This document shows positions 7,601-57,800 of a stretch of DNA of 64,000 nt, one piece after another. Under the pieces are notes generated by a model that was given only the letters and a program-made list of their open reading frames with translations, ran no database searches and was not told the DNA's origin. Source of the DNA: Lytechinus pictus. Taxonomy: Eukaryota. A program made the position numbers and the translations under genes. The number at the start of each line of letters is the position of its first letter. Position 1 is the stretch's first letter. The DNA is taken from contig NC_087247.1 of NCBI RefSeq assembly GCF_037042905.1, forward strand, positions 38,812,001-38,876,000, written 5' to 3'.

Positions 7601-10600
7601 CTTATCTGGTTATTTAGTGTTTGTTTTTGTTTTCAAAACGAAATTATGGAATATTGTATATCAAACTATGTTATTCTTCAATGACTAAATTGTCTAGTAT
7701 GTTATTCAAGAGACTCGCGTTTCAAACTTCTTTTCTTTATATGTTCTCCTACTAAGTACTCTTACCTGCAAACGTAACACTCTTTTTGTCAATGTGACCA
7801 TCATTTTACATGGTGAAAACATGAAAACAAATAAATGAATAAACGGATAAATATTACTATACGACGGGGCAAGATGAATTTACCTTTCCCGTGGCTGTAG
7901 AGCCTGTGAAAGATATCTTGGATACCAGCAGACTCTCGCACATGACTTTACCTATAGCTGGAGCATTAGATCTGGAACAGGGTAATATGTTGAAGACACC
8001 GTCTGGGATACCTGCTTCCTTCGCCATCTGTAGATGAAATGAAGAAGTATAAAAGACGGATAAAATCCTTCATCACTAAACTCCCATGTATTTCTTTTTT
8101 ATTACGTCAAGCTGCAGGCATGTAATTCACCTCAAAGACATTGCAAGTTAGGTTCTGACACGCTTCTCCGTCAGATGCCAAATAACAAAAATATTACTAG
8201 TTATGCTCATTGTTGGTGCCTTTCGAGATGGTAGATTGATAAACATTGCATTTCCAATAAAATTGATTTGGTTTACCGTTGTAAAATCGTAAACCTCCTA
8301 TAATTACATCTATTATACACTTACATCACAGAGAGCCAGTGCAGAAAATGGAGTGTCCTCTGATGGCTTGATAACGACGGTACACCCAACAGCTAAAGCG
8401 GCACCGGCCTTCCTAGTTATCATCTCCATCGGAAAGTTCCACTAAACAGTATGTGTAATTAATAATAATTGGTATACAAAATATGAATACGATTTTGTAA
8501 ACTAGATTTCGGCGGTCATTTGGCATTTCTATGCCATTAAACCTTTAATTTCATTACACTATACACAATTTATAAATCACAACTGATTCACATTTTAATC
8601 AATGNNNNNNNNNNNNNNNNNNNNNNNNNNNNNNNNNNNNNNNNNNNNNNNNNNNNNNNNNNNNNNNNNNNNNNNNNNNNNNNNNNNNNNNNNNNNNNNN
8701 NNNNNNNNNNNNNNNNNNNNNNNNNNNNNNNNNNNNNNNNNNNNNNNNNNNNNNNNNNNCGAAATTCACAATAAAAAAAGAGCGTACATATGAACATAAT
8801 TTATAAAAGCAAGATATAAAATAACAAGTAAGAAACAAATACAAAGAAACAACAATATATGTATATACCGAGACTTTTGAGGATAGTGAAATCGGAAGGA
8901 CACCCAGTCCAGTTCTGCCACTAGACAGTACTGTTCTTCCACGGGGTCCAATGATTAAAACACAAGTATTATAAGAAAAGTCTCACACAAATTTCTTAGA
9001 ACAAAAGGGGAAAATTGGGGATATGGGGGGGGGGGGGGTCCAGCATCAATTTTTTTTTAAAACTTCATAGATCAGGAAGGAAGGCATTGAACCTATGTAA
9101 GAATACCATGAGACTACAAGGGACCTTTAGGCAGGGAGGTCATTGAACTAAGAAGCATCTCTGTACGAGAATGAACGTTTACAATAATTTGTTTTAGGTT
9201 TTTCTATGATATTAAATTTCCATGGGACCTTAGAGAATAACTACACTGGCTACTGGTATGTTGGAAAAATACTTTTTTTATTTAAGGCCTTAAAGACCAT
9301 TGTATTCAGATGATATCATCGCCTATTTGATAAGGTTTTCCAACCCAAACGAACATGTAACTCACATATAGACACGCGACTATATGGACTTATTCCTTAT
9401 ATACTTCTGCATGCTCTGTTTTAAAGTTTCTACAATGAATCGATGTATTTTGCACATGCTGATCATATACTATATCACCGTATTAAAGAATGGGAAGGAT
9501 AATGGCATTGTACGCAATTTTCATATTTTTCTGATCAATAGAGTGACGCAATCGAGCTAATAAACTTATGAGTTTGCTTATTATAGAACATATATATTCG
9601 ACACGCAAATTCCATTTTGAACTGGGATCTAACGACTTGCCAAGATATTTGGTTGATTGCACTTTTTTTATATTTCTTCAATTTACATTCAAGTTCAACC
9701 TATAGTACCAATCATTTTGCCAGAGTCAAAAAGCATACTGTCTTACTGTTTTATCACAGTTAAGACTCAATTTAGAATCGCACAACCACTTGTTTATACT
9801 TTTCAGCTCAGAATTCATTTGGGTTTCAATAGTTGTTTCATTTTTATGAGAGAAATAGACTACCGTGTCATCAGCATATAGGTTAATAGAACAATTTTTA
9901 ATATGTTTTACGATATCATCAATATGAATTAAGAACATAAGCGGACCCAGTATAGACCCTTGAGGGACACCGTAGTTTATTCACTCCCGGATTCACTCAC
10001 TCATTCATTCATTCAATCATTCATTCATCTAGGTATATAATTCATCTATTCATTTGTTTGTCCTCTATTTACAGTATGCATTTGTCGTTTGATACATTTT
10101 TTTCTAATTCAATCATTGAATTCAGTGATGGGCTAACCAGGCCCGTTCCCCCTCCCCTTTTTTGAGAGCCATAACAAATATTTTTAGTTGAAAATGTCGT
10201 GCATAGGGAAGTGAAGACCTTTTCTCTGAACAAAAATACCCCCTTTGGAAAAATCCTGCATCCGCCACTCATTAAATCCATTCAGTTTAATTTTTTTTTC
10301 ATTTCTCCAGGAGTGGTATTTAAAATATTCTCCCACCGACCCTAACAATAAATAATTAAAACATTAAAAAGCTATTTAACTGCACATTCTATCACCCCTT
10401 TTTGATTGTTGATAACAAATTGTTTCACTTACAGGAGTAATAAGTCCAGCCACGCCCACTGGCTGTCGGATAACCATGACCCTCTTGTTTTTGTCATGTG
10501 GCATCAGAACCTCGCCGGTTGTCCTCGTCGCTTCTTCCGCAAAGTATCGAAGGAATTGTGCAGCACCTGTCGCTTCAGTTGAGGCCTCAAACAATTTCTT

Positions 10601-43022: not shown

Positions 43023-44490
43023 TGATAAGTCCTACAACTATAATATAAAGGTGAGTGAGCAAGAAATTTCTGATATACTGATCCGCCTGACGGGAAATAT
43101 TTTTAAGCACTGTTCAACATAAAATTATAGGAAATCATGAAGAATATTAGATCTAACAAAATAAAATGATGCATGCAAGAAGCACGAATATAATGTTTTG
43201 GGCGATTTGGAGTTTAGACCTAAAAGGATCATTCTGCACTTCTTGTAATCATGAACAGAATGTGTATATAATTGGAGAGTTAATTCGAAATTTGCTAAGC
43301 GCGTACTGAAAGTATTTGATATTTTGACCTGAAAAGGGGGGTATTTCAAGGACTGTTATTGCATGGAAAGTCATGAGGAGAATATACGTATTTCATGAAT
43401 TAATAAAATGCGCGTTGCTCGCACTCAAGTTCTTTGATATTTTTTCCAATTATCTCCCTCCCCTTATTTCATTCACTTTTCTTCCTCCACATTCATATTT
43501 TCTCCTTCTCATTTCATTGTACCCAGTATTTTCAATCTCTTAGCTTGAGATGGAGCTATAACCCAAATTTCTTGTGAACAATAGTGTATTCAAAACAAAC
43601 AAAAATAATGTCTAATCTGTGTCGTTCCTTGGTATATATCACGACTAATGTATACATTATGTAGGCATGCTATTTATGAAATACGGAAATAAAATATAAT
43701 TAATCAATAATATGGATACTTAATTCCTATTCGAAATACATTATAATATTAAGATCATTTTTAAGATGAATTTTCATCAGACCTACATATATAACCATTA
43801 ATATTTTATTGAATTACATGCACCATTTCTTTAATGATCTGTGTGCTCGTAACCCGATCGTTATTTCTAGTTTCCCACGCCTCTATCTTTCCCAATGTTA
43901 TAAGCCCATCAATTGGCGAACGAGCTAAGAGTACAGAGAGAATTGGTGTTGATTCATCTGCTTTTGTGCAAACAATCCGCCCGAAAACTTGGGTTACCGG
44001 CATGATGTGGGGGGGGGGGGTTACCAAAAGATGTTTGTTCATCCCAGGGGTGCCTATACTGGTTGGCGTGGGTCCACAGTCCATACTTTATTACATTATA
44101 GTAATTCCATGCATGCACCATTATCCGTCCAATAAAAGTAATAATAATTTGCCTCCATCAGAATGATCGATCTTCATCATTCTCTTTTTGCAAATTTTGT
44201 TTGAGGATGAGAAGGAGAAAAAGAAGGAGATAAAGGAGTAAAAGGAGGAGAGGAAGAATAAGAAGCTAAAGAAGAATGATGAAGCAAGAAAATAATAAGA
44301 AGGGAAAATGAGACGAAGAAGAAGACCGAGGAGGAGATAAAGGAGAAAAGGGAGAAGGAGAAGAAGAAGAATATGGAGAAATAGAAGAAAAAGAATTTGA
44401 AGAAGAAGAAGAATTAAGAAGAGGAAGAACTTGAATGAGACGTTCAATTCGCTGATTCTATTGAATCTGATCGATAAAACCAGGGGCTAA

Positions 44491-45040
44491 CCCCGGGGCC
44501 GCGGGCATTTCCATTGACGAGAGGATACCATGCGTGATCACTTTTTCAAGATATAGGGTACGTTATACGTACGTATATTACGTAATAATTAAGGGTGTCA
44601 AAAACACTAAAATAATGAAAAAAGGGTACATATATTTCGCTAGGAAAACTACGTGTTTACCGCGGTCCAATTTGCGAGGGTATAAAAAGGCTAAAATACT
44701 TTATTTTAAACTGTTTGCCTCAATCGTGTTTAGGGTCCGATTTGAACGAGGTGTGAGCTAATGGGTAAAATAAAGCCGACGTCCGTGATCACGTCCGTAT
44801 AAATGAAGATATCGTTGTACATGTAAAGGGGGTCCGGGAGGATCGATCGAGGTCAATTACCGGGGTCCATTAAGGGAATACTACCTGTCAAGGGTACCGT
44901 TTTGTTTCCAATACTTGCTAAGGGTAAGGTTTCACAGGCCTTAAGGGGTGCATTTTATGAACATGGAAAATACTTGTTTAGGGTGCTTTTCAAATTAACC
45001 CCCGCGGCCCCACCATGGTCACGCATGGTATCCACTCCAA
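44491..45040. mobile_element. Older degenerate copy of the same MITE family
   Basis: Collinear similarity to 45065-45651, including the TIR core GGATACCATGCG. Confidence 0.75.
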
Positions 45041-45064
45041 TCAGTGATGGCTAAACCACTGCAA

Positions 45065-45651
45065 CCCGGGGGGGGGGGGGGGGCCACTAACATTGGCGAG
45101 TGGATACCATGCGCGACCAAAAAAACACGTAAAAAGGATGTCTTTTTCATGATAGGGCACGTTACGTACGTAACGTAATAAGGGTGTCAAAAACACTAAA
45201 ATAATGAAAAAAGGGTATCCATTTTTGCTAGGAAAGCTACGTGTTTAGGGTCAAATTTGCGAGGGTATAAAATTAAGACTAAAATGTTTTATAAAGGATA
45301 TACTTTTTGCCCCAAGAGTCAACATTACGTGTTTAGAGTACGATTCGTGCGACTGGTGGGAGGTAGTATGATGTAGGCAAAGGTAAAACCGACGACCGAC
45401 GTCCGTGACCTAACAACTGAAATATTAGTCGCTATACTTGTTTAGGGGGTCAATTCAGGGAATAGGCCTACTTGCCAATAGTATCGCTTTGTTTCCAATA
45501 CTTGTTAAGGGTATGGTTTCACACGCCAATACTTGTTAAGGGGTGCATTTTCAGAATATGGAAAATACGTGTTTAGGGTGCTTTTCGAGACCCGGCCATG
45601 GTCGCGCATGGTATCCACTCGTCAATGGAAGTGCCCCCCCCCCCCCCCCGG
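45065..45651. mobile_element. Non-autonomous TIR element (MITE) with poly-G/C termini and 8-bp TSD
   Basis: TIR CCGG(G)n..CATTGGCGAGTGGATACCATGCGCGACC / GGTCGCGCATGGTATCCACTCGTCAATG..(C)nGG; TSD CACTGCAA at 45057-45064 and 45652-45659. Relatives at 44491-45040 and ~12400-12639. Confidence 0.85.
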
Positions 45652-45682
45652 CACTGCAAGCAAGCGGCAAGCAAGTAGGCCC
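45491..45682 (+). repeat. Left copy of the ~190-bp direct repeat flanking the retrotransposon
   Basis: Same as 54169-54357 except poly-C length (16 vs 13). Confidence 0.92.
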
Positions 45683-45697
45683 GTTGGATCGTTGACA

Positions 45698-47311
45698 TGG
45701 ATCGTTGACAAAAAGGGACTATTTCAGATGGCAAATTCCGCTTGGGATTGTATAAGTATACAACGGTCAACTGAGCTGGCCTCCGAAGAACCGATGTAAC
45801 TGTGTTTTTTCAATCTATGGAGTTAAAAGAAAAAGAGGGAAAAACATCCTCAGTTTCAAGACCATAAATGTATCACTGAATGTTACGTGGTTTACATAAC
45901 TTCCTAAATTGTCATGAACCAAATGCATATTTGACTTTACAGTCTGAATCAAATTGTTTATAAAAGATCTGAAGTCTTTGCTTTTACTTTCATGATGTCA
46001 TGTTTGCATTAATTACTTGACAAATAAATTGAATATTGCTGGTAAAAATAATCCTCTATGTCTGAACAGGTGTCTTCCTTGTTTAACTTGTTTCAGTTAG
46101 AGTTTTAGTTAAATTTCTCAATCTGAGAACTCCAAATATCCTACTTGTGACATCATGAGTAAACAAACACCTCAAATATAGCAATGGTTAACATTGAATC
46201 TCAAATGCCTACCGTAAACATGAGCCAACTGGCATCAATTATTCATAGTCAAAAATGACTGAAGCAGTTAAAAAATGATGCATCTTTGTTGCATTTAAAA
46301 TCTGCCAAAGACAAATCTAAACGTCTGAAAGAAGACTAATATTTGCATTTTCCTATCTGTGCAATTTGCACTTATAAAACAAAACATGCCAATGTTTGGT
46401 GCATAATTTATCCTTTTTTCAGAAATAATTATGTTTTTCCTAAATTTGCAAATCCTTTACTTTCACAAAACCTTACTTTTGGTTTGAGCAATATCTATTA
46501 TTAAAAATCAACTAATTCAAAGAGTGTATTTCTCACAAATTCTGAACCTAGATATTGAGCAAGAACACACATGTGTTATCTTCAATATTAATATCGACTC
46601 TTGCTTTTAAACTGTAATCTCACTATTTTTACGAAGCATGGGAATTTTGTTTGTTATTCTCATGCATACTCTTCATCTAACACAATGCCTGAAAATGTTC
46701 ATCTCATTTTCTGTTTAAAAACAAATTACTTCTTGGGCTTATGTCTGTTTATAATTTACAGACTAGTTTAAAACAAATACATTATCTTGCTTCTGTTTAT
46801 CATTTTACATGTATCATAACCCTTAGTTTATAAACTAAATGTGCAGATTCAGAATAGAAAGTGTATCTTATAACTTTTTGACTTTCAATCTTTTAATCTG
46901 TTTTGTCTTTTGCCATTACCGCACTAAAAGAAAATACAAGCATTGAACCTAGCCGCTTGCAATGGGCGCTTTAAACATGCGTTAAAACTTTCACTTGACT
47001 CGAACACTTTCCGTTCCAAATTTTCACATTTGTACATTACATAAATGGATCTTGTTTAACTCATACTTTACTCACTTTCTTGGCGGAAAGTACCAATAAC
47101 TCGAAAAGTCAGAAATGAAACCTCACGGTCTCATTTTCCTAAAAAACTACAGCGAAACAGCTCCAAACATGCTCGCTGCACATGTCGATAACTGCCTAAT
47201 TTTAACAGGCCAATTTTGCAGTCAACGTAAACTTCTAAGGTGTCTTCAAATTATGCCTTCTGAACTAAACCAAAAGAAATACATATGAAAAAATACTTGT
47301 TCAACGAAACA
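45698..47311 (-). repeat. 3' LTR (1614 bp)
   Basis: Direct repeat of 52555-54168 at constant offset 6857; no differences in spot checks. Confidence 0.95.
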
Positions 47312-47373
47312 TCCACCGCCCCAATGGGCACTTTGTTCCCATTTACATAAACATATAAACATTGAAATCAAAT

Positions 47374-50300
47374 TTAATCCTTGTAACCTTCTACAGGATA
47401 CAATACCACTATTTTTGTGACTGGTCTCCGATATTCATTATTCTTTGTCTTAACTTTAACGTTTCTTATCTTGTTGTCTGACCCTGGGTAGACGTTAACT
47501 ATCTTACCTAGTGTCCATTTTCCGCGAACGGAATTAGGATCAGACATCAAAACAATATCACCAACGCGAACATTGCGTTTCTCGACATTCCACTTTCTTC
47601 TTGGAACAAGTAGAGGAAATACGTCTCGGTTCCAAACCTTCCAGAAAGAGTTTATGATTCTCTGTACGAATTCAACTCGATGCCTCGGATTAGGCGTTTC
47701 CCGGAATGGTCCTTGTGGAACTGATGTAGATGCGCGTCCTAACAACAAGTCATTGGGCGAAAGATAGGAACCGTCATCTGGATCATTGGGCACTCTGCCA
47801 ATAGGGCGCTGATTCACTAAATTTGCGACTTCAGTCAAACAGGTAAGTAGCTCAAAGGGACGTAGGATCTGATCTCCTATTGCTTTGCGTAGCGCTATCT
47901 TGCAACTCTTCACTAGGGATTCGACGCACCCATTCTGATGTGGCGCAGATGGTGTCACAAACTTCCACTGGATTCCTCGTTCGGCACAAAACTCTCTCAG
48001 CTGAGATTCACTCCAGCCTTGTACCATAGCTCGAAGCTCCTTCTCGGCTCCCACAAACTGAGTACCATTGTCACTGTAGATGACTGCTGGGTAACCTCTG
48101 ACTGCTACAAATCTGCGAAATACTTGAAGGAACTCCATTGTTGAGCAGTCGACAGCGACATCTAGATACACTGCCCTCGTATTCAAGCACGTGAAGATCA
48201 CACCGTAATGCTTCATTGTTTTGTTTCTACCAACTCGAACCTGGTATGGACCAAAATAGTCGCACGATGTATAGTAGAACGGCGGTGTGTATGGTGCTAG
48301 ACGATGACTAGGAAGATCTGCCATAAACTGGGATTCTACTCTATGTTCTGATTTCCTGCACACCACACATTTGTACTTCACAGTCTTGGCGATCCTCTGA
48401 ACTCCCACAATCCAGTACTTCTGTCTCACTTTTGCGGCCGTGGTTGCTACCCCTTCATGACCTTGCTCGTGAAAGTAGCTAACTATGAGTGTCGAAATGT
48501 GGTGCTGATGTGGTAGCAGTACTGGGTGCCTTTCATCATATGAAACAACTCTCTCTCCTACCCTGCCGCCGACTCTGATGATTCCCTCCTTGATGTAGGG
48601 ACTGAGAGTTTTGAACTCTCCTTTCTTGTATCTATCATGTAGTTCTCTCTGTGCTCTCTTTATCCAAAGAGTCTCTGCATTCTCTAGCTCTGATGGTGAG
48701 ATTTGCTTACTATCAGAGGGCTGAATGTCAGTATCTGGTGCCTTGTTACATCTCGCCTTCAAGTTTCTGACGAATCTCTGAACATAAGCTGTAACTCTAA
48801 CAAGTTTCCTCCATCTAGAAAACTTCTTGCAGTCGATGGGTTCTGACTGAACCTCTGCTAAGGCCACCTGATGAACTTTACGCTTCTCTTTTTCTACCTC
48901 TCTGCTATCAGGAGTCTCCTCAGTACTTGGCCATCTATTCTCATGCCAGTAGAGAAATTCTGGTCCATTCTCCCATCTCTCTGTTAGCTTCTCAGGAGGG
49001 ATGCCTCGGGATATATCATCAGCAGGATTCTGCTCTCCGGGTACATGTCTCCACCAAGAAGGGTTGGAATTTGTCTGAATTTCACCCACTCTGGCAGACA
49101 CGAACGGCTTGTAGGCTCTAGCTTTACTTCGGATCCACCCAAGAACGATCATGCTGTCTGTCATGAATACAGCACTATCAAGCTCAAGAGTAAGTTCTTC
49201 TTTGATAGCTGTGTACAATCTAGTCGCCATCACTGCTGCTTGTAGTTCTAGACGTGGCAACGTTAGCTTCTTGAGAGGTGCCACTCTGGATTTGGCAGCA
49301 ATGAATCTAACATCATATTCATCATCAGTCAGTTTCCACCTGATGTAGACACATGTTCCGAAGGCTTCTTCTGATGCATCACAGAATACAACTAGCATTG
49401 GTACACCTACAGACTGTGATGGTGTTAAACTTCTCGGGAACCTCACGTCATTCAGAGCCTTCATTTCATTGAAGAGTTTATCCCATTCTGCACTTATCTC
49501 CTCTGGTAACTCGTCATCCCATCCGACTCCAATCTCCCACAGCCGTTGCATTCCTATCTTAGCTTTCACTAAGAAAGAAGCAGCAAAACCAATCGGGTCG
49601 AATACCTTAGCAATGCGACTCAAGATTCGTCTCTTCGTCCACATCACAGAGTTCTGCTTCTCACTGGGCTGAGTTAAGTTCTCTCCTTTGACTTTATAAG
49701 AGAACTCATCTTGCTGCTGGATCCACACAACTCCAAGCACCTTTTCTTCCGTCAAATTCTCTAGCAAACTTGTCTCTGTCTGGCATTCAGGAACCGTCTC
49801 CTCCTTCAGTGGGACATTTGATATCCAGCCTTTGACCTTGAAACCGCCAGTATCCAACACTTCATCCAGGTCGTGTGTGAGATTACGACCTTCCTCAACG
49901 GTAGACACTGATGTGCATATATCATCCATGTAAGTGTCCCTTTCTATTACACTTGCAGCTTCCGGATATGCACCTCTTCCTTCCTCTGCAGTGCGTCTGA
50001 GAGCTATTTGGGCCATTGCGGGGGCAGGCTTATCCCCGAATGTAACCACTTTCTTCACATATACATCTGGCTCTTGTTTCACGTTCAAGTCTCTCCAGAG
50101 ATATCTATGCACGTGTTGGTCTGCTTCTGGAATGAGGACACGGTGGTACATCTTGGATATGTCACCTAATATGGCTACAGGTCTCTCTCTGAATCTTAAC
50201 AGAACTCCAAACAGATCCTTCAGCAAATCCGGTCCCTTCATCCAGTAGTCGTTAAGACAATGACCGTGGAAACTTGAGGAAGAATTGAAAACAATTCGTA

Positions 50301-52494
50301 AGGGGGTAGACTTCTTCTCTGGCCTGACTACGGCATGATGACTGATGTAATGCACCGGGCCTTGATAGTTCTTCATCTCTTCTTGAGTCAACTTTCTTGA
50401 AAACCCCATATCTTTCATCTCTTTCATTTGCTTGCTGTAGGCCTCTGCATACTCGGGATTTTTGACCAGTTTCTTCTCAGTTCCAGCAAGCATCCTCTCT
50501 GCCTGCATCTTATTATCAGGTAGATGACTTGGATCCCTCTTCCAAGGATAAGGGATCATCCACTGACGTCCTACTTTCTGGCAGGAAGCATTGATGACAT
50601 CGTATTCATCTTTTTCTACTTTACTCAGTTTGGGTGGGTAACACTGGCAGGATGAAGACTCAACACCCATACTCTCTGTACTCCAAAATTCTGTCAGATC
50701 AGTCACTTGGGTTACCTGCATATGGAGTACTCTACTTGGTAACTGCTGTCTGGTGCTGAGAGGTCCAAACACCACCCATCCAATTGGAGACTTGCGGGCG
50801 ATACATTTAATTCCCTGTCTGGTTTGACCTGCATGCATCTGTACATGGTCCAATCCTATTAGCAAATCAATTGCACCACTCTTCCTATGCACTTCTTGGG
50901 GACTTAAGTGCATCTTCTTACATTCTTCCTTCAATGGTACCTCAGAAATATCATTGCTGATGTGTGGCAGTCCTATTGCGGTCACATAATGCCTTTGGTT
51001 ACTACCAATAGCTTGAACTGGGAATCGATATATCTCTGTCTGGACTTGCTCCTCATCACAGCCAATCTTGGTGATAGTGACCGAGACTTTCTTTCCCTTC
51101 AGTCTCAGTCTGTCAGCTACTTCCTGTCGCACGATACTTAACTGTGATCCGGAGTCGAGTAGTACATTTCCTTCAATCCGTTCCTGCTTACTGGGAGAAA
51201 CTATCTCAGCAGTAACAACTGGCAACAGTGTATCTGTATTGGTGGTGATAGCTACACCCACAGTGTTACTCTGTTCTTCTGACCTATGAAGCAGAGGATG
51301 ATGGAAGTATCTGCATTGCTGACCTCCAGTCACTTCACTGCATTGCTTTCTTCTCTTGCAGGTATTCATTCTATGATCCTTGCCCGCCTTTTTAAGACAG
51401 CTAAAGCAGGCTTGATTCTTCTTAGCCACATTCAAACGGTCAGACTGGGTCATACTAAGAAGCTTTTTACACTGGTCAGTCCAATGATCTGATGTCATAC
51501 AAAGCCAACACTTGAAGAACATAACATCTGGTTTAGCAGAATTACTCTGGACACTGCTGACTTGAAACACTTTTCCGGCTTTCTTCTCTTCAGCACGCAC
51601 TGGGGCTGCGGCTCTCATCCGAGACTTCATCTCAGATGTCATCCACTCTATGAGGTAACTTAAACATGCTGGCTTTCCATCTTGCTCCAAGTGCCGGAAC
51701 CATACTCTCCTATCATCGACATGCATCTTCCGTTCAATGAGAGCAAGAACTTGACTATTGTCCATGTCTTGTGGACGATTCACTGCTTGTAGACAATGAT
51801 AACTTCTGCGAACTAGATGGACAAGATCGCAGAACCTGGCATCTTCTCCACATTTTAAACCCTTGAACTGGTTTAAATCATAGACTACTGCGTCTGCGAC
51901 AAATCTAGGATCCCCATATATTGAGTCGAGATATGCAATAGCTGAGTCAAAATCTTCACCGATACCTCTTATCATCTCCTGGGCCTTTCCTTGAAGACAG
52001 GATCGGAGTAAACTAATCATATCTCTCTTGGTATATCTGCCTTCTGTCATATGGATGAAGTCTTTCCTGAAAATATGATAATCACGAACATCTCCAGTAA
52101 ACCTTGGTAACTTAGTTTTCTCTAACTTGACAATGGATGACAATGGAGACACACTAGAAGCTTGCATCATCTGAATTTCATCCAATGGACTACTTGACTC
52201 TACATCATCTTTGCTATAGTCAGTCACCTCCATTTGCCTATTCAAGAAGGATTCCTGAATTACGTCTAACCATTTCTCCTCTGCTTCATACTGGGTGTCA
52301 TCCAAAATGGTTGCTGTGTACTTCTCGTGCACATCATTTACTTGATCATACGCTGCTTTGTATGATTCAAAGGCCTCGTTTACCTCTGATGATGGACGGT
52401 GCTGCTCCATCTGGAAGTTAAGGGCTTTCTCCATTCTTGTCAGCTTGCCCTTAGCCGTCCTTCTCTTAATCTTCAAACTCTCAGTAGTATCCAT
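47374..52494 (-). CDS. BEL/Pao Gag-Pol polyprotein (1706 aa from the first ATG; ORF track starts at GTG 52524)
   Basis: Three Zn knuckles (CWLC..H..C, CFSC..H..C, C..C..HHPLLH); protease LLDSGS; RT YMDD; RNase H FCDAS; integrase HHCC plus DDE (CDYFGP, SDNGTQF, GCVESL). Domain order PR-RT-RH-IN, no stops. Confidence 0.96.
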   Translation of the reverse strand: MDTTESLKIKRRTAKGKLTRMEKALNFQMEQHRPSSEVNEAFESYKAAYDQVNDVHEKYTATILDDTQYEAEEKWLDVIQESFLNRQMEVTDYSKDDVESSSPLDEIQMMQASSVSPLSSIVKLEKTKLPRFTGDVRDYHIFRKDFIHMTEGRYTKRDMISLLRSCLQGKAQEMIRGIGEDFDSAIAYLDSIYGDPRFVADAVVYDLNQFKGLKCGEDARFCDLVHLVRRSYHCLQAVNRPQDMDNSQVLALIERKMHVDDRRVWFRHLEQDGKPACLSYLIEWMTSEMKSRMRAAAPVRAEEKKAGKVFQVSSVQSNSAKPDVMFFKCWLCMTSDHWTDQCKKLLSMTQSDRLNVAKKNQACFSCLKKAGKDHRMNTCKRRKQCSEVTGGQQCRYFHHPLLHRSEEQSNTVGVAITTNTDTLLPVVTAEIVSPSKQERIEGNVLLDSGSQLSIVRQEVADRLRLKGKKVSVTITKIGCDEEQVQTEIYRFPVQAIGSNQRHYVTAIGLPHISNDISEVPLKEECKKMHLSPQEVHRKSGAIDLLIGLDHVQMHAGQTRQGIKCIARKSPIGWVVFGPLSTRQQLPSRVLHMQVTQVTDLTEFWSTESMGVESSSCQCYPPKLSKVEKDEYDVINASCQKVGRQWMIPYPWKRDPSHLPDNKMQAERMLAGTEKKLVKNPEYAEAYSKQMKEMKDMGFSRKLTQEEMKNYQGPVHYISHHAVVRPEKKSTPLRIVFNSSSSFHGHCLNDYWMKGPDLLKDLFGVLLRFRERPVAILGDISKMYHRVLIPEADQHVHRYLWRDLNVKQEPDVYVKKVVTFGDKPAPAMAQIALRRTAEEGRGAYPEAASVIERDTYMDDICTSVSTVEEGRNLTHDLDEVLDTGGFKVKGWISNVPLKEETVPECQTETSLLENLTEEKVLGVVWIQQQDEFSYKVKGENLTQPSEKQNSVMWTKRRILSRIAKVFDPIGFAASFLVKAKIGMQRLWEIGVGWDDELPEEISAEWDKLFNEMKALNDVRFPRSLTPSQSVGVPMLVVFCDASEEAFGTCVYIRWKLTDDEYDVRFIAAKSRVAPLKKLTLPRLELQAAVMATRLYTAIKEELTLELDSAVFMTDSMIVLGWIRSKARAYKPFVSARVGEIQTNSNPSWWRHVPGEQNPADDISRGIPPEKLTERWENGPEFLYWHENRWPSTEETPDSREVEKEKRKVHQVALAEVQSEPIDCKKFSRWRKLVRVTAYVQRFVRNLKARCNKAPDTDIQPSDSKQISPSELENAETLWIKRAQRELHDRYKKGEFKTLSPYIKEGIIRVGGRVGERVVSYDERHPVLLPHQHHISTLIVSYFHEQGHEGVATTAAKVRQKYWIVGVQRIAKTVKYKCVVCRKSEHRVESQFMADLPSHRLAPYTPPFYYTSCDYFGPYQVRVGRNKTMKHYGVIFTCLNTRAVYLDVAVDCSTMEFLQVFRRFVAVRGYPAVIYSDNGTQFVGAEKELRAMVQGWSESQLREFCAERGIQWKFVTPSAPHQNGCVESLVKSCKIALRKAIGDQILRPFELLTCLTEVANLVNQRPIGRVPNDPDDGSYLSPNDLLLGRASTSVPQGPFRETPNPRHRVEFVQRIINSFWKVWNRDVFPLLVPRRKWNVEKRNVRVGDIVLMSDPNSVRGKWTLGKIVNVYPGSDNKIRNVKVKTKNNEYRRPVTKIVVLYPVEGYKD

Positions 52495-52554
52495 GCTTCC
52501 TTCTCTGTCACGTTCCCGTAGCACCTCAGGATGGTTTCGTGAAAATTGAATTGA

Positions 52555-54168
52555 TGGATCGTTGACAAAAAGGGACTATTTCAGATGGCAAATTCCGCTT
52601 GGGATTGTATAAGTATACAACGGTCAACTGAGCTGGCCTCCGAAGAACCGATGTAACTGTGTTTTTTCAATCTATGGAGTTAAAAGAAAAAGAGGGAAAA
52701 ACATCCTCAGTTTCAAGACCATAAATGTATCACTGAATGTTACGTGGTTTACATAACTTCCTAAATTGTCATGAACCAAATGCATATTTGACTTTACAGT
52801 CTGAATCAAATTGTTTATAAAAGATCTGAAGTCTTTGCTTTTACTTTCATGATGTCATGTTTGCATTAATTACTTGACAAATAAATTGAATATTGCTGGT
52901 AAAAATAATCCTCTATGTCTGAACAGGTGTCTTCCTTGTTTAACTTGTTTCAGTTAGAGTTTTAGTTAAATTTCTCAATCTGAGAACTCCAAATATCCTA
53001 CTTGTGACATCATGAGTAAACAAACACCTCAAATATAGCAATGGTTAACATTGAATCTCAAATGCCTACCGTAAACATGAGCCAACTGGCATCAATTATT
53101 CATAGTCAAAAATGACTGAAGCAGTTAAAAAATGATGCATCTTTGTTGCATTTAAAATCTGCCAAAGACAAATCTAAACGTCTGAAAGAAGACTAATATT
53201 TGCATTTTCCTATCTGTGCAATTTGCACTTATAAAACAAAACATGCCAATGTTTGGTGCATAATTTATCCTTTTTTCAGAAATAATTATGTTTTTCCTAA
53301 ATTTGCAAATCCTTTACTTTCACAAAACCTTACTTTTGGTTTGAGCAATATCTATTATTAAAAATCAACTAATTCAAAGAGTGTATTTCTCACAAATTCT
53401 GAACCTAGATATTGAGCAAGAACACACATGTGTTATCTTCAATATTAATATCGACTCTTGCTTTTAAACTGTAATCTCACTATTTTTACGAAGCATGGGA
53501 ATTTTGTTTGTTATTCTCATGCATACTCTTCATCTAACACAATGCCTGAAAATGTTCATCTCATTTTCTGTTTAAAAACAAATTACTTCTTGGGCTTATG
53601 TCTGTTTATAATTTACAGACTAGTTTAAAACAAATACATTATCTTGCTTCTGTTTATCATTTTACATGTATCATAACCCTTAGTTTATAAACTAAATGTG
53701 CAGATTCAGAATAGAAAGTGTATCTTATAACTTTTTGACTTTCAATCTTTTAATCTGTTTTGTCTTTTGCCATTACCGCACTAAAAGAAAATACAAGCAT
53801 TGAACCTAGCCGCTTGCAATGGGCGCTTTAAACATGCGTTAAAACTTTCACTTGACTCGAACACTTTCCGTTCCAAATTTTCACATTTGTACATTACATA
53901 AATGGATCTTGTTTAACTCATACTTTACTCACTTTCTTGGCGGAAAGTACCAATAACTCGAAAAGTCAGAAATGAAACCTCACGGTCTCATTTTCCTAAA
54001 AAACTACAGCGAAACAGCTCCAAACATGCTCGCTGCACATGTCGATAACTGCCTAATTTTAACAGGCCAATTTTGCAGTCAACGTAAACTTCTAAGGTGT
54101 CTTCAAATTATGCCTTCTGAACTAAACCAAAAGAAATACATATGAAAAAATACTTGTTCAACGAAACA
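52555..54168 (-). repeat. 5' LTR (1614 bp)
   Basis: Imperfect inverted termini TGTTTCGTTGA / TGGATCGTTGA. Confidence 0.95.
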
Positions 54169-54357
54169 GTTTCCAATACTTGTTAAGGGTATGGTTTCAC
54201 ACGCCAATACTTGTTAAGGGGTGCATTTTCAGAATATGGAAAATACGTGTTTAGGGTGCTTTTCGAGACCCGGCCATGGTCGCGCATGGTATCCACTCGT
54301 CAATGGAAGTGCCCCCCCCCCCCCGGCACTGCAAGCAAGCGGCAAGCAAGTAGGCCC
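54169..54357 (+). repeat. Right copy of the ~190-bp flanking direct repeat
   Basis: Begins immediately after the LTR terminal CA. Confidence 0.92.
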
Positions 54358-54812
54358 ATCTGGTGCTGGTCACCTTGGTCGTTTCTTTATCTTTTTCAAA
54401 ATAGTATTCTACTGTTATCTTTTGTACATATGTATTCCCACAAATCATAATCATTTTTTTTCCATGTATACTCTGATGATTTATTTTGATATGATCCTAG
54501 ATTGCATTCCCTCGCATTCCACTAAACACCCGGGCACCAACACCAACACTACTAATGGCATGCATTCTTCTCCTCCACATCATCATCTCCACCGAAATCT
54601 CTTAAGTCTATTTATGAACACACAGTCATCATTCCCCTCATCATTGCTATCCATCTATCAGGCCTTCGCTTCAGCATCATTACCACCAATCAAATCACGT
54701 CACCGCCTGTAACGATCTCTCTCTCGATCTCCGATCCATATCCCGATAAGACAATTTACCCACAACTTACTGCCTACTTGAATACTGTTATCTGCAAGTT
54801 AGCTCCGTGGTA

Positions 54813-57800
54813 ATGGCGAATTCCAATGCTCGTGATGGTGAATTGGTTGAAGAGGTGGGTATGCTTGTCAAAATTTAATCTTGGAAGCTGGTTGGCAAGC
54901 TAATTCAAAGAGCTAACCACAGTCCACACGTATGAGGTGAATGCAGAACACCGACCATAATGCGATTGCTCAATTGGCAACTGGATGATATGCGCGGGGG
55001 GACTAATGCCTAATGGGGATAAGGGGACGGGATATTATTACGTATGGGACTGTAGATAGTGATTAGGTCTGGTGCTACTTGCCAGTGCTGTGTGATTTCT
55101 GCAAAAATCATCAAATTGGGTAAAAAAAATTATATAGATCTACAGGGATTACGGGAGACTATTTTGCATTCACAATCACAATTTATGGCTAGGCTTACCG
55201 GCTTTAGATTCCCGGCATGTTGGTAATCCTGGGTTTTATGGGGACCCGATCTGCCCGATGAGGACTAAATTATTGCACCCATAAGTCAGGTCCTCTGGCC
55301 ACTAAATTCACCAAACTCACACACCATCATTTATTATTGATGGCCCCTTCCCGACCCCACCTCCCGGCTCCCTATACTCGTGCCAGAGGGGGTGGCAGTG
55401 GCAGTATGGTAGGAACTACCCCTTATCGACCACCTCTTCTAAGCATCGTATTTGCGAAAATATCAGTTTTATCTAGTTTTTGTCTCATTTGTGCAGAAAA
55501 TTGAGCAGATTAGATTCCCATGTTTCGATCACAGACTCCGATTCAATTCACGTATATATTGGCGAACAACGAATACGACGATTTTACATTTGCTCATTTG
55601 AACCCTTCTTTTTAAATTGACCACCCGCAATACACTAAGTTTACGGCCGATTCTTGTCGCGGTGGCGAAATATTTTGACTCTTCCAAATCAGTTCTATGA
55701 TGTCAACATGCTAATTCGTCTCACTACTTCCACTGCGAGCTCCGGCACATGATTCAACGATTGACGACGGATATTTGTTCTAAAGCTCAGTGGCAGACCG
55801 TGACCAGGAGGAGACAAAGCATTGGAGGGGCACAGCATTGTTCATAAAGAATACAGTGCCCCTCCAATCATTTGTCTCCTTCGGGTCACGGTCCGCTACT
55901 GCTAAAGCTGTTTTCTATCGGATTTCTTGGTATGATCAACTGTTTTTCGGCGAAGTTCGGGTCTAGTCAAAACAATTTTGATAAATTCTACTATTTTTTT
56001 TTACCTTTTTCCCCTTCTTTTTCTCTCGTAAAATCGATTCTTACCATTCCTATGGAGACTGCGCGCAAGGTGGTCAGTTTCAAAAGAGGTGGTCTCACTA
56101 TACCCGGGGGGGGGGGGGGGGCAAGCAAATATATTGCTGTACACAACGAGTGCAGACGGGCCGCGCCTGCACTCGTTAAGGATATAAAAAACACTGACTT
56201 AAGAAAAAGGGTGATTTTGAAAGACTAGGGCCCGTTTCTCAACACATGGACAAGTTAGTCATATCTTTATCCACCAACCACGGAGTTAGTTCCAATCTTA
56301 CTGAACCTGTTTCTCGAAAGGCTTCCTAACTAGAATACCTTGATATCGATATTATCGGTAAAAAGAGCAGACGAGACGTAGCCTTAGTCACAAAATAGCA
56401 TAATTTTCAAAAAGCAAAAATTATGACAAAATTGCAAATATTGTGATGAATTGGGAAATAAATCTTTTCGAAATAATAGCACAGGTGAATTATGCATCAT
56501 ACATACTTAGACCATGAAGACTGAAGCATTCAATTGCAGAAAAATTAAATTCTGAATAATTCATTTCATGACTAAAAAATCACTTGTGGAAGTTGAGATG
56601 GGTACCCCCGGGATATCAAATTTTAATAGTTTACGAAAGTAAACCTTAACGGTTTTCTTTGTAAAATGATGATAATTATACGTTCTTTTATGACTCCGAA
56701 AGTCATCAAAATGATAGTTTAACAAAACATTTTTAATAATTGATACCGAAACATACAAAATTTGACAAATTATATGCATAAATTAGAGATAGAATTTATC
56801 CAACTGTTAACATGATTAATAGGGGTCTGAAAACAACAAATACGAGTTCAGTTATGGATGGCCTGACGTGGTAGAATCTTTATAGATTAAATCATTTTAC
56901 TATTTCAAACTGAATGGTTTTGTGGCGTTTTACCAACAGTTTTTATAGTTTCTTTGTATTACAATTATCATTGAATGCATTATCCGCCACTTGTTTTGTG
57001 ATGTAATTTCAACCTCTATGATTGATTACGTAAGATTGTAATTTTAAAATTTCTAGGCACTTTTGCATGTCATAGTCTACCCACGTGATGCCACTACGTC
57101 ATTAAGAAAGAAGTTATGACAGGTTCGGAGGTGTCATAAATATGTAGTGACGTTGTTGTACCCGATCTTGGTAAAGAGGGCTTTGTGAAACGGGTCAAAT
57201 GTATCAAGGGTATTTTTTTCCAAAGCTTTTTTTTCTTAAAGACTAGCCAAATGTGTTTAGGGTATGTTTTTTCCCCGGGGTCATATTCTGGCGACAGCTT
57301 GTTTAGGGGCCAAAATGTGTAAATAAAGCCCGCAAAAAACTTGTTTAGGGGGTTATTTTGCACACACAGAAAAAACTAGTTTGGGGGGTATTTGGAAATA
57401 ATTTTGTCACGCATGTGTACAGCAATACATTTGACTGCCTCCCCCCGGGCAGTACCGGTGGGAATGGGGAGGGCTAATTATCAATTATTTTACAATGTGA
57501 TAAGCTGGGATGAGTTGGGTGAAGTTATTAGCGACCACTTTAGTGTGATAAAACCCAGGTTTACCCCCATCTCAATTCTATGGATGAATGTCTAACGGAC
57601 AGCATGAAGCCTGACATTGAGGCAGTAGCCAGACCCTTAAAAAAGGGAGGGGGAAGGCCGCGTTCGTTCACTCACTTTCAGAATTGCAAACAAAACTGGC
57701 CAATCGATATACCGAGGGCGCATGCCCAAATAGACTCGGCCAAATTTGTGCATGTGCCCTTGGTATATCGATCAGCCAGTTTTCTTGTTCCATCGTGATT

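What the first reader, a model, noticed from the sequence alone, without database searches (positions are those of the whole stretch)
45491..54357. LTR retrotransposon flanked by a ~190-bp duplication instead of a short TSD
Seen: 45491-45682 recurs at 54169-54357. It comprises the right arm of a MITE, that MITE's own TSD and ~23 bp of unique flank, so it is not two independent MITE insertions. The right junction is clean (CA|GTTTCC). The left junction has GT plus a 13-bp tandem copy of the LTR end (TGGATCGTTGACA, 45685-45697). Known: BEL/Pao integrases make ~5-bp TSDs, and one-ended retroviral integrations finished by host repair can give large duplications. Inference: this is a natural aberrant integration, with one integrase-joined end and one repair-joined end.
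Basis: partly seen in the sequence, partly recalled or inferred. Interest (0 to 1): 0.7.

Follow-up and report, generated by a model that had tools for sequence, protein, structure and literature searches.

The report
Retrotransposon inserted with 190-base host duplication
A jumping gene with two identical end repeats sits, as assembled, between two copies of about 190 bases of host DNA instead of the 5 or 6 bases its relatives leave, likely because its own enzyme inserted only one end and host repair then likely patched in the other, a rare outcome already known from retroviruses that reads have not yet confirmed here.

Summary
Observation confirmed. A BEL/Pao element on the minus strand (one open 1733-aa frame; two 1614-bp LTRs, 0 differences) lies between 45491-45682 and 54169-54357, which match except for a C-run (16 vs 13). 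The repeat includes 33 bp found only at these two places in the assembly. Of 23 other insertion sites of the family, 14 had both outer ends: 13 show a 5-6-bp TSD, 1 is irregular, none has a long duplication. The U3 junction is clean. The U5 junction has 15 extra bases that can be read as two patches copied from the LTR's own first 13 nt; this doubled end is unique in the assembly. Best reading (0.65): one-ended integration finished by host repair, as described for HIV-1/ASLV; human HERV-K has natural 13-450-bp duplications. An assembly artefact (0.15) stays open: only contigs of other individuals were available, and in the narrow lay none reached the duplicated segment. The scan noted similar cases before (two LTR cases in other genomes; L1 and RTE cases in this one; unchecked). 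A new example of a known kind; I found no BEL/Pao case in print.

The parts
45057..45064 (+). Left 8-bp TSD of the MITE (CACTGCAA)
   Evidence: 8-bp TSDs at paralogues
45065..45651 (.). Complete MITE with CCCGG(G)n terminal inverted repeats; high-copy family; the retrotransposon's target
   Evidence: (3448 first-look candidates)
45491..45682 (+). Left copy of the host duplication (192 bp): MITE right arm, 8-bp TSD, 23 bp unique flank; C-run of 16
45683..45697 (+). 15-nt filler: GT plus a 13-nt tandem copy of the LTR's first bases; readable as two LTR-templated patches (inferred)
45698..47311 (-). 3' LTR (1614 bp); its U5 end faces the filler
47312..47322 (-). Purine-rich tract just before the 3' LTR (GGGGCGGTGGA), probable polypurine tract
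   Evidence: function inferred from position
47374..52575 (-). Single uninterrupted Gag-Pol frame, 1733 aa stop to stop (first ATG at 52494): DUF1759, DUF1758, RT, Peptidase_A17, integrase, DUF5641
52555..54168 (-). 5' LTR (1614 bp, identical to the 3' LTR); its U3 end makes the clean CA|GTTTCC junction
54169..54357 (+). Right copy of the host duplication (189 bp; C-run of 13); continues into single-copy flank

Best explanation
A BEL/Pao LTR retrotransposon with identical LTRs is flanked, as assembled, by a 190-bp host duplication, a clean junction at one end and a 15-base patched junction at the other, most likely because integrase joined only the U3 end and host repair likely attached the U5 end 190 bp further on. 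Steps: (1) integrase joins the U3 CA-3' end to the target between 45490 and 45491 (clean junction shown; enzyme inferred). (2) The U5 end is not joined, so one target strand stays an intact empty template (inferred). (3) The free U5 3' end primes twice on its own terminal 13 nt and then on host DNA at 45682, or equally the broken left arm is extended about 190 nt on the empty strand or sister chromatid and then end-joined to the LTR (patch sequence shown; order and enzyme inferred, polymerase theta a candidate). (4) Resolution leaves 45491-45682 on both sides. Whether the 13-nt doubling caused the failure (a reverse-transcriptase slip that made a bad end) or followed it (repair) cannot be told from sequence.
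For: Family control: 13 of 14 other two-ended sites have 5-6-bp TSDs, 0 of 14 a long duplication, including two full-length copies whose LTRs differ at 1/1606 and 4/1616 sites. The right copy starts exactly at the LTR's terminal CA, with no microhomology. The left LTR is whole to base 1, and the filler is LTR-derived: 13 of 15 nt equal LTR nt 1-13; C-GT-TG equals LTR nt 6-10, and GT is the only 1 of 16 dinucleotides giving such a match in LTR nt 1-15 (2 of 16 within 30 nt of either end). The doubled end occurs once in the assembly. LTRs (0/1614) and copies (0 substitutions in 175 bp) are both undiverged, so the two events are close in time. Published model: a free viral 3' end primes on nearby host or viral DNA, several pieces can be appended, and host duplications of hundreds of bp are the commonest outcome (PMC5041404, passages and Discussion). 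Patchwork templated insertions and tandem duplications from end-joined recombination intermediates are described in C. elegans (PMC8654963, passages).
Against: No read or contig shows either junction: the listed runs hold at most 0.17 of the flank's words and look like other individuals, and in the narrow lay none of 4 runs covered 54316-54439. The C-run differs by 3 nt between the copies, as two alleles might. The microhomologies of the patch reading are 1-2 nt and were fitted afterwards. GT(T) also equals the first bases of the target (GTTTC), which fits rivals 2 and 4. No defect of this copy's U5 end or integrase was found: A at LTR nt 13 also occurs in a copy with a normal TSD (L017), and candidate catalytic D, D, E residues are present. 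Nine family sites lacked one outer end and could not be scored.
Confidence: 0.65

Rival explanations
1. Assembly artefact: the insertion is heterozygous with an ordinary 5-bp TSD, and the assembler or polisher joined the empty haplotype (through 45682) to the filled one at the LTR start.
For: No spanning reads seen. C-run differs. The assembly holds near-identical repeated blocks that may be false duplications (one insertion with the same flanks five times on C11 at 97-100%, one twice on C8). Earlier scan notes report L1 and RTE insertions with 400-500-bp flanking duplications in this same assembly (unchecked), which a systematic error would also give.
Against: No gap at the junctions. A haplotype join does not readily add 15 LTR-derived bases while keeping the LTR whole (my reasoning, not tested). 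Alleles of the neighbouring flank differ by several percent: in 128 bp, window vs X1 4, window vs X3 3, X1 vs X3 7 substitutions; at 2-3% the chance of 175 identical bases is 0.03-0.005, though polishing or a recent shared MITE haplotype could erase differences. Two comparable full-length copies are assembled with normal TSDs. Both flanks are single-copy, so no second haplotig is held.
Confidence: 0.15
2. Normal two-ended integration with a 5-bp TSD, followed by a break at the U5 junction (failed gap repair or a later break) that was repaired by copying about 187 bp from the empty homologue or from the right flank, then end-joined to the LTR.
For: Gives the same final structure. The would-be TSD GTTTC is present at the start of the left copy, and the filler begins with GT(T), like the TSD.
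Against: A later, independent break would have to hit within 15 bp of the junction, lose no LTR base and happen before either LTR gained a change. A homologue template should show allelic differences. Failed gap repair at the time of insertion is close to the best explanation and cannot be fully separated from it.
Confidence: 0.12
3. Two independent insertions 190 bp apart on two alleles, then recombination between the two elements, leaving the left flank of one and the right flank of the other.
For: The MITE family is hit more than once by this element: another copy on C26 has a solo LTR about 10 bp from the equivalent position (L019).
Against: Does not explain the 15-nt filler. Needs two insertions with identical LTRs, while the closest other copies are at most 97.7% identical to this LTR. 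The left junction lies in unique flank, not in the MITE.
Confidence: 0.03
4. A 190-bp tandem duplication existed first and the element inserted at, or 2 bp past, its junction (a pseudo-TSD in the sense of PMC5488345).
For: Left side reads copy-GT and right side starts GT, as if a 2-bp duplication marked an insertion just inside the second copy.
Against: The family makes 5-6-bp TSDs. Hitting the one junction by chance is very unlikely. The 13-nt LTR doubling stays unexplained. A 2-bp match has a 1-in-16 chance.
Confidence: 0.05

Closest known systems
Aberrant one-ended integration of HIV-1 and ASLV DNA (Varadarajan et al. 2016, PMC5041404; passages and the whole Discussion read)
   Same: One normal junction, one aberrant junction with appended viral sequence, and a host duplication of hundreds of bp.
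   Different: Those were induced by drugs, integrase mutants or mutated ends in cell culture, and the bad end is often truncated. Here the case is natural, in an invertebrate-type BEL/Pao element, and the LTR is whole with a doubled tip.
HERV-K (HML-2) loci with long TSDs (Kahyo et al. 2017, PMC5488345; parts 1-3 of 4 of the text read; supplements not read; Mamedov et al. seen only as cited there)
   Same: Natural, inherited LTR elements between near-identical host copies; 8 loci over 10 bp (13-450 bp) among 451 estimated TSDs, two with sequenced empty alleles.
   Different: Retrovirus in primates, mostly old solo LTRs, mechanism left open. This copy is full-length with undiverged LTRs and keeps a filler that points to end-priming.
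BEL/Pao LTR retrotransposons (de la Chaux and Wagner 2011, PMC3118150; passages)
   Same: Two LTRs, one frame with protease, RT and integrase in that order, Pao-type Pfam domains.
   Different: This copy lacks the short TSD of its own family; no TGG-type primer site follows the 5' LTR in this family. Superfamily (BEL, Pao, Suzu, Sinbad and others) not determined.
Tandem duplications and patchwork templated insertions from polymerase-theta end joining of aborted recombination (Kamp et al. 2021, PMC8654963; passages)
   Same: A local duplication closed by a junction made of short pieces copied from the break flanks.
   Different: Shown genetically in C. elegans mutants without a transposon between the copies; here the enzyme is only inferred.

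Membership tests
BEL/Pao LTR retrotransposon | Two direct LTRs bounded by TG...CA | tested here: met
   1614-bp LTRs, TG...CA, 0 differences; same ends in other copies
BEL/Pao LTR retrotransposon | Gag-Pol with protease, RT, RNase H, integrase in that order and Pao-type domains | tested here: met
   DUF1759, DUF1758, RVT_1, Peptidase_A17 (E 7.6e-52), Integrase_H2C2, rve, DUF5641 in order; DSG, YMDD, DAS, HHCC motifs (motif names recalled). rve, RVT_1 score below Pfam's curated cut-off.
BEL/Pao LTR retrotransposon | Placement in a named superfamily by RT/integrase tree | not tested
   No tree was built.
BEL/Pao LTR retrotransposon | tRNA primer-binding site (TGG...) after the 5' LTR | tested here: inconclusive
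   The 5' LTR is followed by TCAATTCAATTTTC, no TGG, here and in sister copies; longest complement within the element is 9 nt. No tRNA set was compared.
Normal concerted integration product of this family | 5-6-bp TSD abutting both LTRs | tested here: not met
   Absent at this copy; present at 13 of 14 other two-ended sites
Aberrant one-ended integration (HIV-1/ASLV type) | One end with intact CA and a clean host junction | tested here: met
   GAAACA|GTTTCC, no microhomology
Aberrant one-ended integration (HIV-1/ASLV type) | Other end joined through appended viral or host pieces with short homology | tested here: met
   15-nt filler, 13 nt equal to LTR nt 1-13; 1-2-nt microhomologies are weak
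Aberrant one-ended integration (HIV-1/ASLV type) | Large host duplication starting at the normal junction | tested here: met
   192/189 bp starting at 45491/54169
Aberrant one-ended integration (HIV-1/ASLV type) | Structure exists on one DNA molecule; empty allele has one copy | tested here: inconclusive
   Only contigs of other individuals; none of 4 runs covered 54316-54439, and one search was swamped by MITE paralogues
Aberrant one-ended integration (HIV-1/ASLV type) | Duplication made during the integration event, by host enzymes | not testable with these tools
   Inferred from lack of divergence in LTRs and copies

The most novel reading that the evidence does not exclude
In this animal's germline, half-finished insertions of unrelated retroelements (BEL/Pao here; L1 and RTE in unchecked scan notes) are regularly completed by one host route that copies a few hundred bases of flank and patches the end. 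Long-duplication insertions would then be a recurring class that TSD-filtered pipelines discard, and one that can be excised without a scar by recombination between the copies.
Probability: 0.15. Interest if true: 0.6.

Novelty: new member of a known kind. Interest (0 to 1): 0.36.

Why it matters
If reads confirm it, this is a fresh natural record of one-ended integration outside retroviruses, with the repair patch still legible. It suggests that the failure mode seen with HIV integrase inhibitors also occurs unprovoked in BEL/Pao elements. Standard LTR pipelines filter on a short TSD (PMC8220671, passages), so such copies are likely under-counted. The 190-bp direct repeats would also allow the whole element to be lost by recombination with no solo LTR left, which matters when empty alleles are read as ancestral. 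One locus with no gene in sight: the effect on the host is probably small.

Tried and rejected
Reads: the one run search gave 18 runs, all contigs, best share 0.17. I laid 4 of them on 44400-55600 (swamped by MITE paralogues; the joints that skip about 9.3 kb lie in MITE sequence and are not evidence) and 4 (three of the same plus X10) on 54316-55230 (no cover of 54316-54439, X10 laid nothing). Lack of cover says nothing for or against. Second haplotig in the assembly: none for either flank. Two independent MITEs: rejected. MITE-driven alternative transposition: rejected, since neither breakpoint is at a MITE end. The 190 bp as part of the LTR: rejected, it lies outside both LTRs on opposite sides. 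Homology-driven joining at the right junction: LTR end and MITE share AATACTTGTT and an inverted GAAAC/GTTTC, but out of register with the junction. The ungapped TSD script missed this window's own duplication because of the C-run gap; the flank-to-flank BLAST in the same call found it, so the BLAST is the valid control for long duplications. Seventeen loci (L034-L050) proved to be an LTR-derived piece carried inside another repeat and were left out of the TSD count. A scan of 443 kb (70 loci plus the window) for other near-identical direct repeats found none that I could read as a second insertion with a long flanking duplication; I looked at two candidates (L024, L025) and did not inspect L003, L032, L033 further. 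Self-priming partner for the missing primer site: none over 9 nt. Oh et al. 2006 was not held; its title was seen only in a reference list.

Full report
Observation. The window is G000:C3:38812001-38876000 of an 812-Mb assembly in 368 contigs. Earlier scan notes call the genome a sea urchin's; I did not test that. Bases 45491-45682 recur at 54169-54357 with no substitution in 175 bp and one gap in a C-run, 16 against 13. The repeat holds the right arm of a MITE (45065-45651), the MITE's 8-bp TSD and 23 bp of flank. The best of the MITE paralogues among the fetched loci matches the arm at 96.5%, and the 33 bp past the C-run hit only these two places in the assembly. The duplication is therefore of this locus.

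The element. Between the copies lies a minus-strand LTR retrotransposon: LTRs at 45698-47311 and 52555-54168, 1614 bp, 0 differences, and one open frame of 1733 aa. Pfam gives DUF1759, DUF1758, RVT_1, Peptidase_A17, Integrase_H2C2, rve and DUF5641 in that order, the BEL/Pao layout (domain order and Peptidase_A17 in PMC3118150, passages). A purine tract precedes the 3' LTR. No TGG primer site follows the 5' LTR; both LTR ends continue CA-TC into the interior. Zero differences between LTRs means a very recent insertion, unless polishing homogenised them; I give no date.

Family control. Four searches for LTR ends (counts are lower bounds) and three fetches gave 23 independent sites besides this one, counting five C11 copies with the same flanks as one and two C8 copies as one. 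Nine lacked one outer end in the fetched DNA and were dropped; 17 further loci were an LTR piece inside another repeat and were also left out. Of the 14 two-ended sites, 9 have an exact 5-bp TSD, 1 an exact 6-bp TSD, 3 a 5-bp TSD with one mismatch, and 1 (L008) none by script; by eye it is TGGGA with 4 bases lost from the LTR start. None of 14 shows a long adjacent duplication by flank-to-flank BLAST over 450 bp (two gave other hits: an old 73-77% host repeat in L003 and inverted MITE arms in L019), while the same test finds the one in this window. So the long duplication is an exception, not the family's habit.

Junctions. Right (U3): GAAACA|GTTTCC; the target before the cut reads GCTTT, so there is no microhomology. 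Left (U5): host ...GGCCC, then GTTGGATCGTTGACA, then the full LTR. The host would have continued ATCTGG. Thirteen of the 15 bases equal LTR nt 1-13. The other two can also be read from the LTR: C-GT-TG is LTR nt 6-10, and only GT of 16 dinucleotides gives such a match in nt 1-15. On the element's sense strand this reads as a U5 3' end extended twice on its own tip and then on host DNA, with 1, 2 and 1 nt of homology. These overlaps are short and fitted after the fact. GT also equals the start of the target, a 1-in-16 coincidence that rivals can use. The doubled tip occurs once in the assembly, allowing one mismatch, and is absent from the inner U5 end at 52555, so it arose after the two LTRs were templated (inferred).

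Mechanism. I commit to one-ended integration finished by host repair (0.65). Shown: the anatomy above. Inferred: integrase made the right junction; the U5 end failed; an intact empty strand or sister served as template for about 190 nt; an end-joining polymerase made the patch. PMC5041404 (passages and Discussion) describes this outcome for HIV-1 and ASLV: one normal end, a free 3' end that primes on viral or host DNA, several pieces appended, and duplications of hundreds or thousands of bp. PMC8654963 (passages) links patchwork insertions and tandem duplications to polymerase theta in C. elegans; that enzyme is a candidate here, not shown.

Against it. No read of the assembled individual was available. 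The run search returned contigs with at most 0.17 of the flank's words. Laid on the locus, they were swamped by MITE copies or did not reach the duplicated segment. They do show that alleles of the flank differ by several percent: in 54836-54963, 4 substitutions window vs X1, 3 window vs X3, 7 X1 vs X3 (one 128-bp stretch, and the runs' species may not be the window's). That makes two haplotypes identical over 175 bp unlikely (0.03 at 2%, 0.005 at 3%) and so counts against a haplotype merge or a homologue template, with the caveats of polishing and recent shared ancestry. The C-run difference fits alleles, slippage or consensus error equally. The assembly has repeated blocks that may be false duplications, and scan notes list L1 and RTE insertions with 400-500-bp duplications in it (not checked by me). 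These notes cut both ways: systematic error or a real host tendency. I leave 0.15 for artefact, 0.12 for normal integration then repair, 0.05 for a prior tandem duplication, 0.03 for recombination between two insertions.

Known relatives and novelty. Natural long duplications are in print for HERV-K: 8 loci of 13-450 bp among 451 estimated TSDs, two with sequenced empty alleles (PMC5488345, parts 1-3 of 4 read). Six literature searches (listings and abstract starts only; most subscription journals not covered) showed no BEL/Pao or invertebrate LTR-retrotransposon case. The scan itself noted a copia element with a 266-bp duplication and an LTR fossil with a 128-bp duplication in other genomes (unchecked). 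Verdict: a real-looking, well-formed new example of a known kind, awaiting reads. Interest 0.36.

Noticed in passing
L019:2437-3367 (G000:C26, about 504440-505370) and window 45491: A short solo LTR of the same family sits in another copy of the same MITE family, TSD GTATC, about 10 bp from the equivalent position of this insertion. Rough chance 0.001-0.007 for 14 sites, post hoc. L008 has the MITE about 250 bp from its LTR. The MITE arm shares AATACTTGTT with the LTR's U3 end. Possible target preference.
   Followed up: partly
window 52514-52554 and 47312-47326: No TGG-type primer-binding site follows the 5' LTR in this family; both LTR ends continue CA-TC into the interior, like a symmetric 2-nt extension. 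Priming mode unexplained; no self-complement over 9 nt.
   Followed up: partly
L034-L050 (17 loci on 12 contigs): A rearranged piece of this LTR lies inside another young repeat of more than 5 kb (same upstream flank in all 17, mostly 95-99% alike, palindromic right end). The host repeat was not identified.
   Followed up: no
L017:2722-8117, L018:2696-9708: A foldback insertion with terminal inverted repeats and internal tandem arrays interrupts the LTR at about nt 1467-1474; the two C8 copies, 188 kb apart, differ in array length. The C5 copy (L030) also breaks off at nt 1467, into different sequence.
   Followed up: no
L010-L014 (G000:C11, 23 kb-963 kb): One solo LTR with the same flanks (TSD CTCAT) occurs five times at 97-100% identity, about 200-330 kb apart: a large tandem segmental repeat or false duplication.
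   Followed up: no
L024:4664-5170 and 7711-8215: A 507-bp direct repeat at 98.4%, 3 kb apart, in coding-like repeat sequence without TG...CA ends; not read as a TSD.
   Followed up: partly
window 44490-45040: An older, about 68% identical relative of the MITE lies directly left of the young copy; another element with CCCGGG ends and related inner sequence spans about 56104-57452.
   Followed up: no
L008:543: A family solo LTR whose left end appears to have lost 4 bases against a TGGGA target, a small second irregular junction in the family (read by eye).
   Followed up: partly
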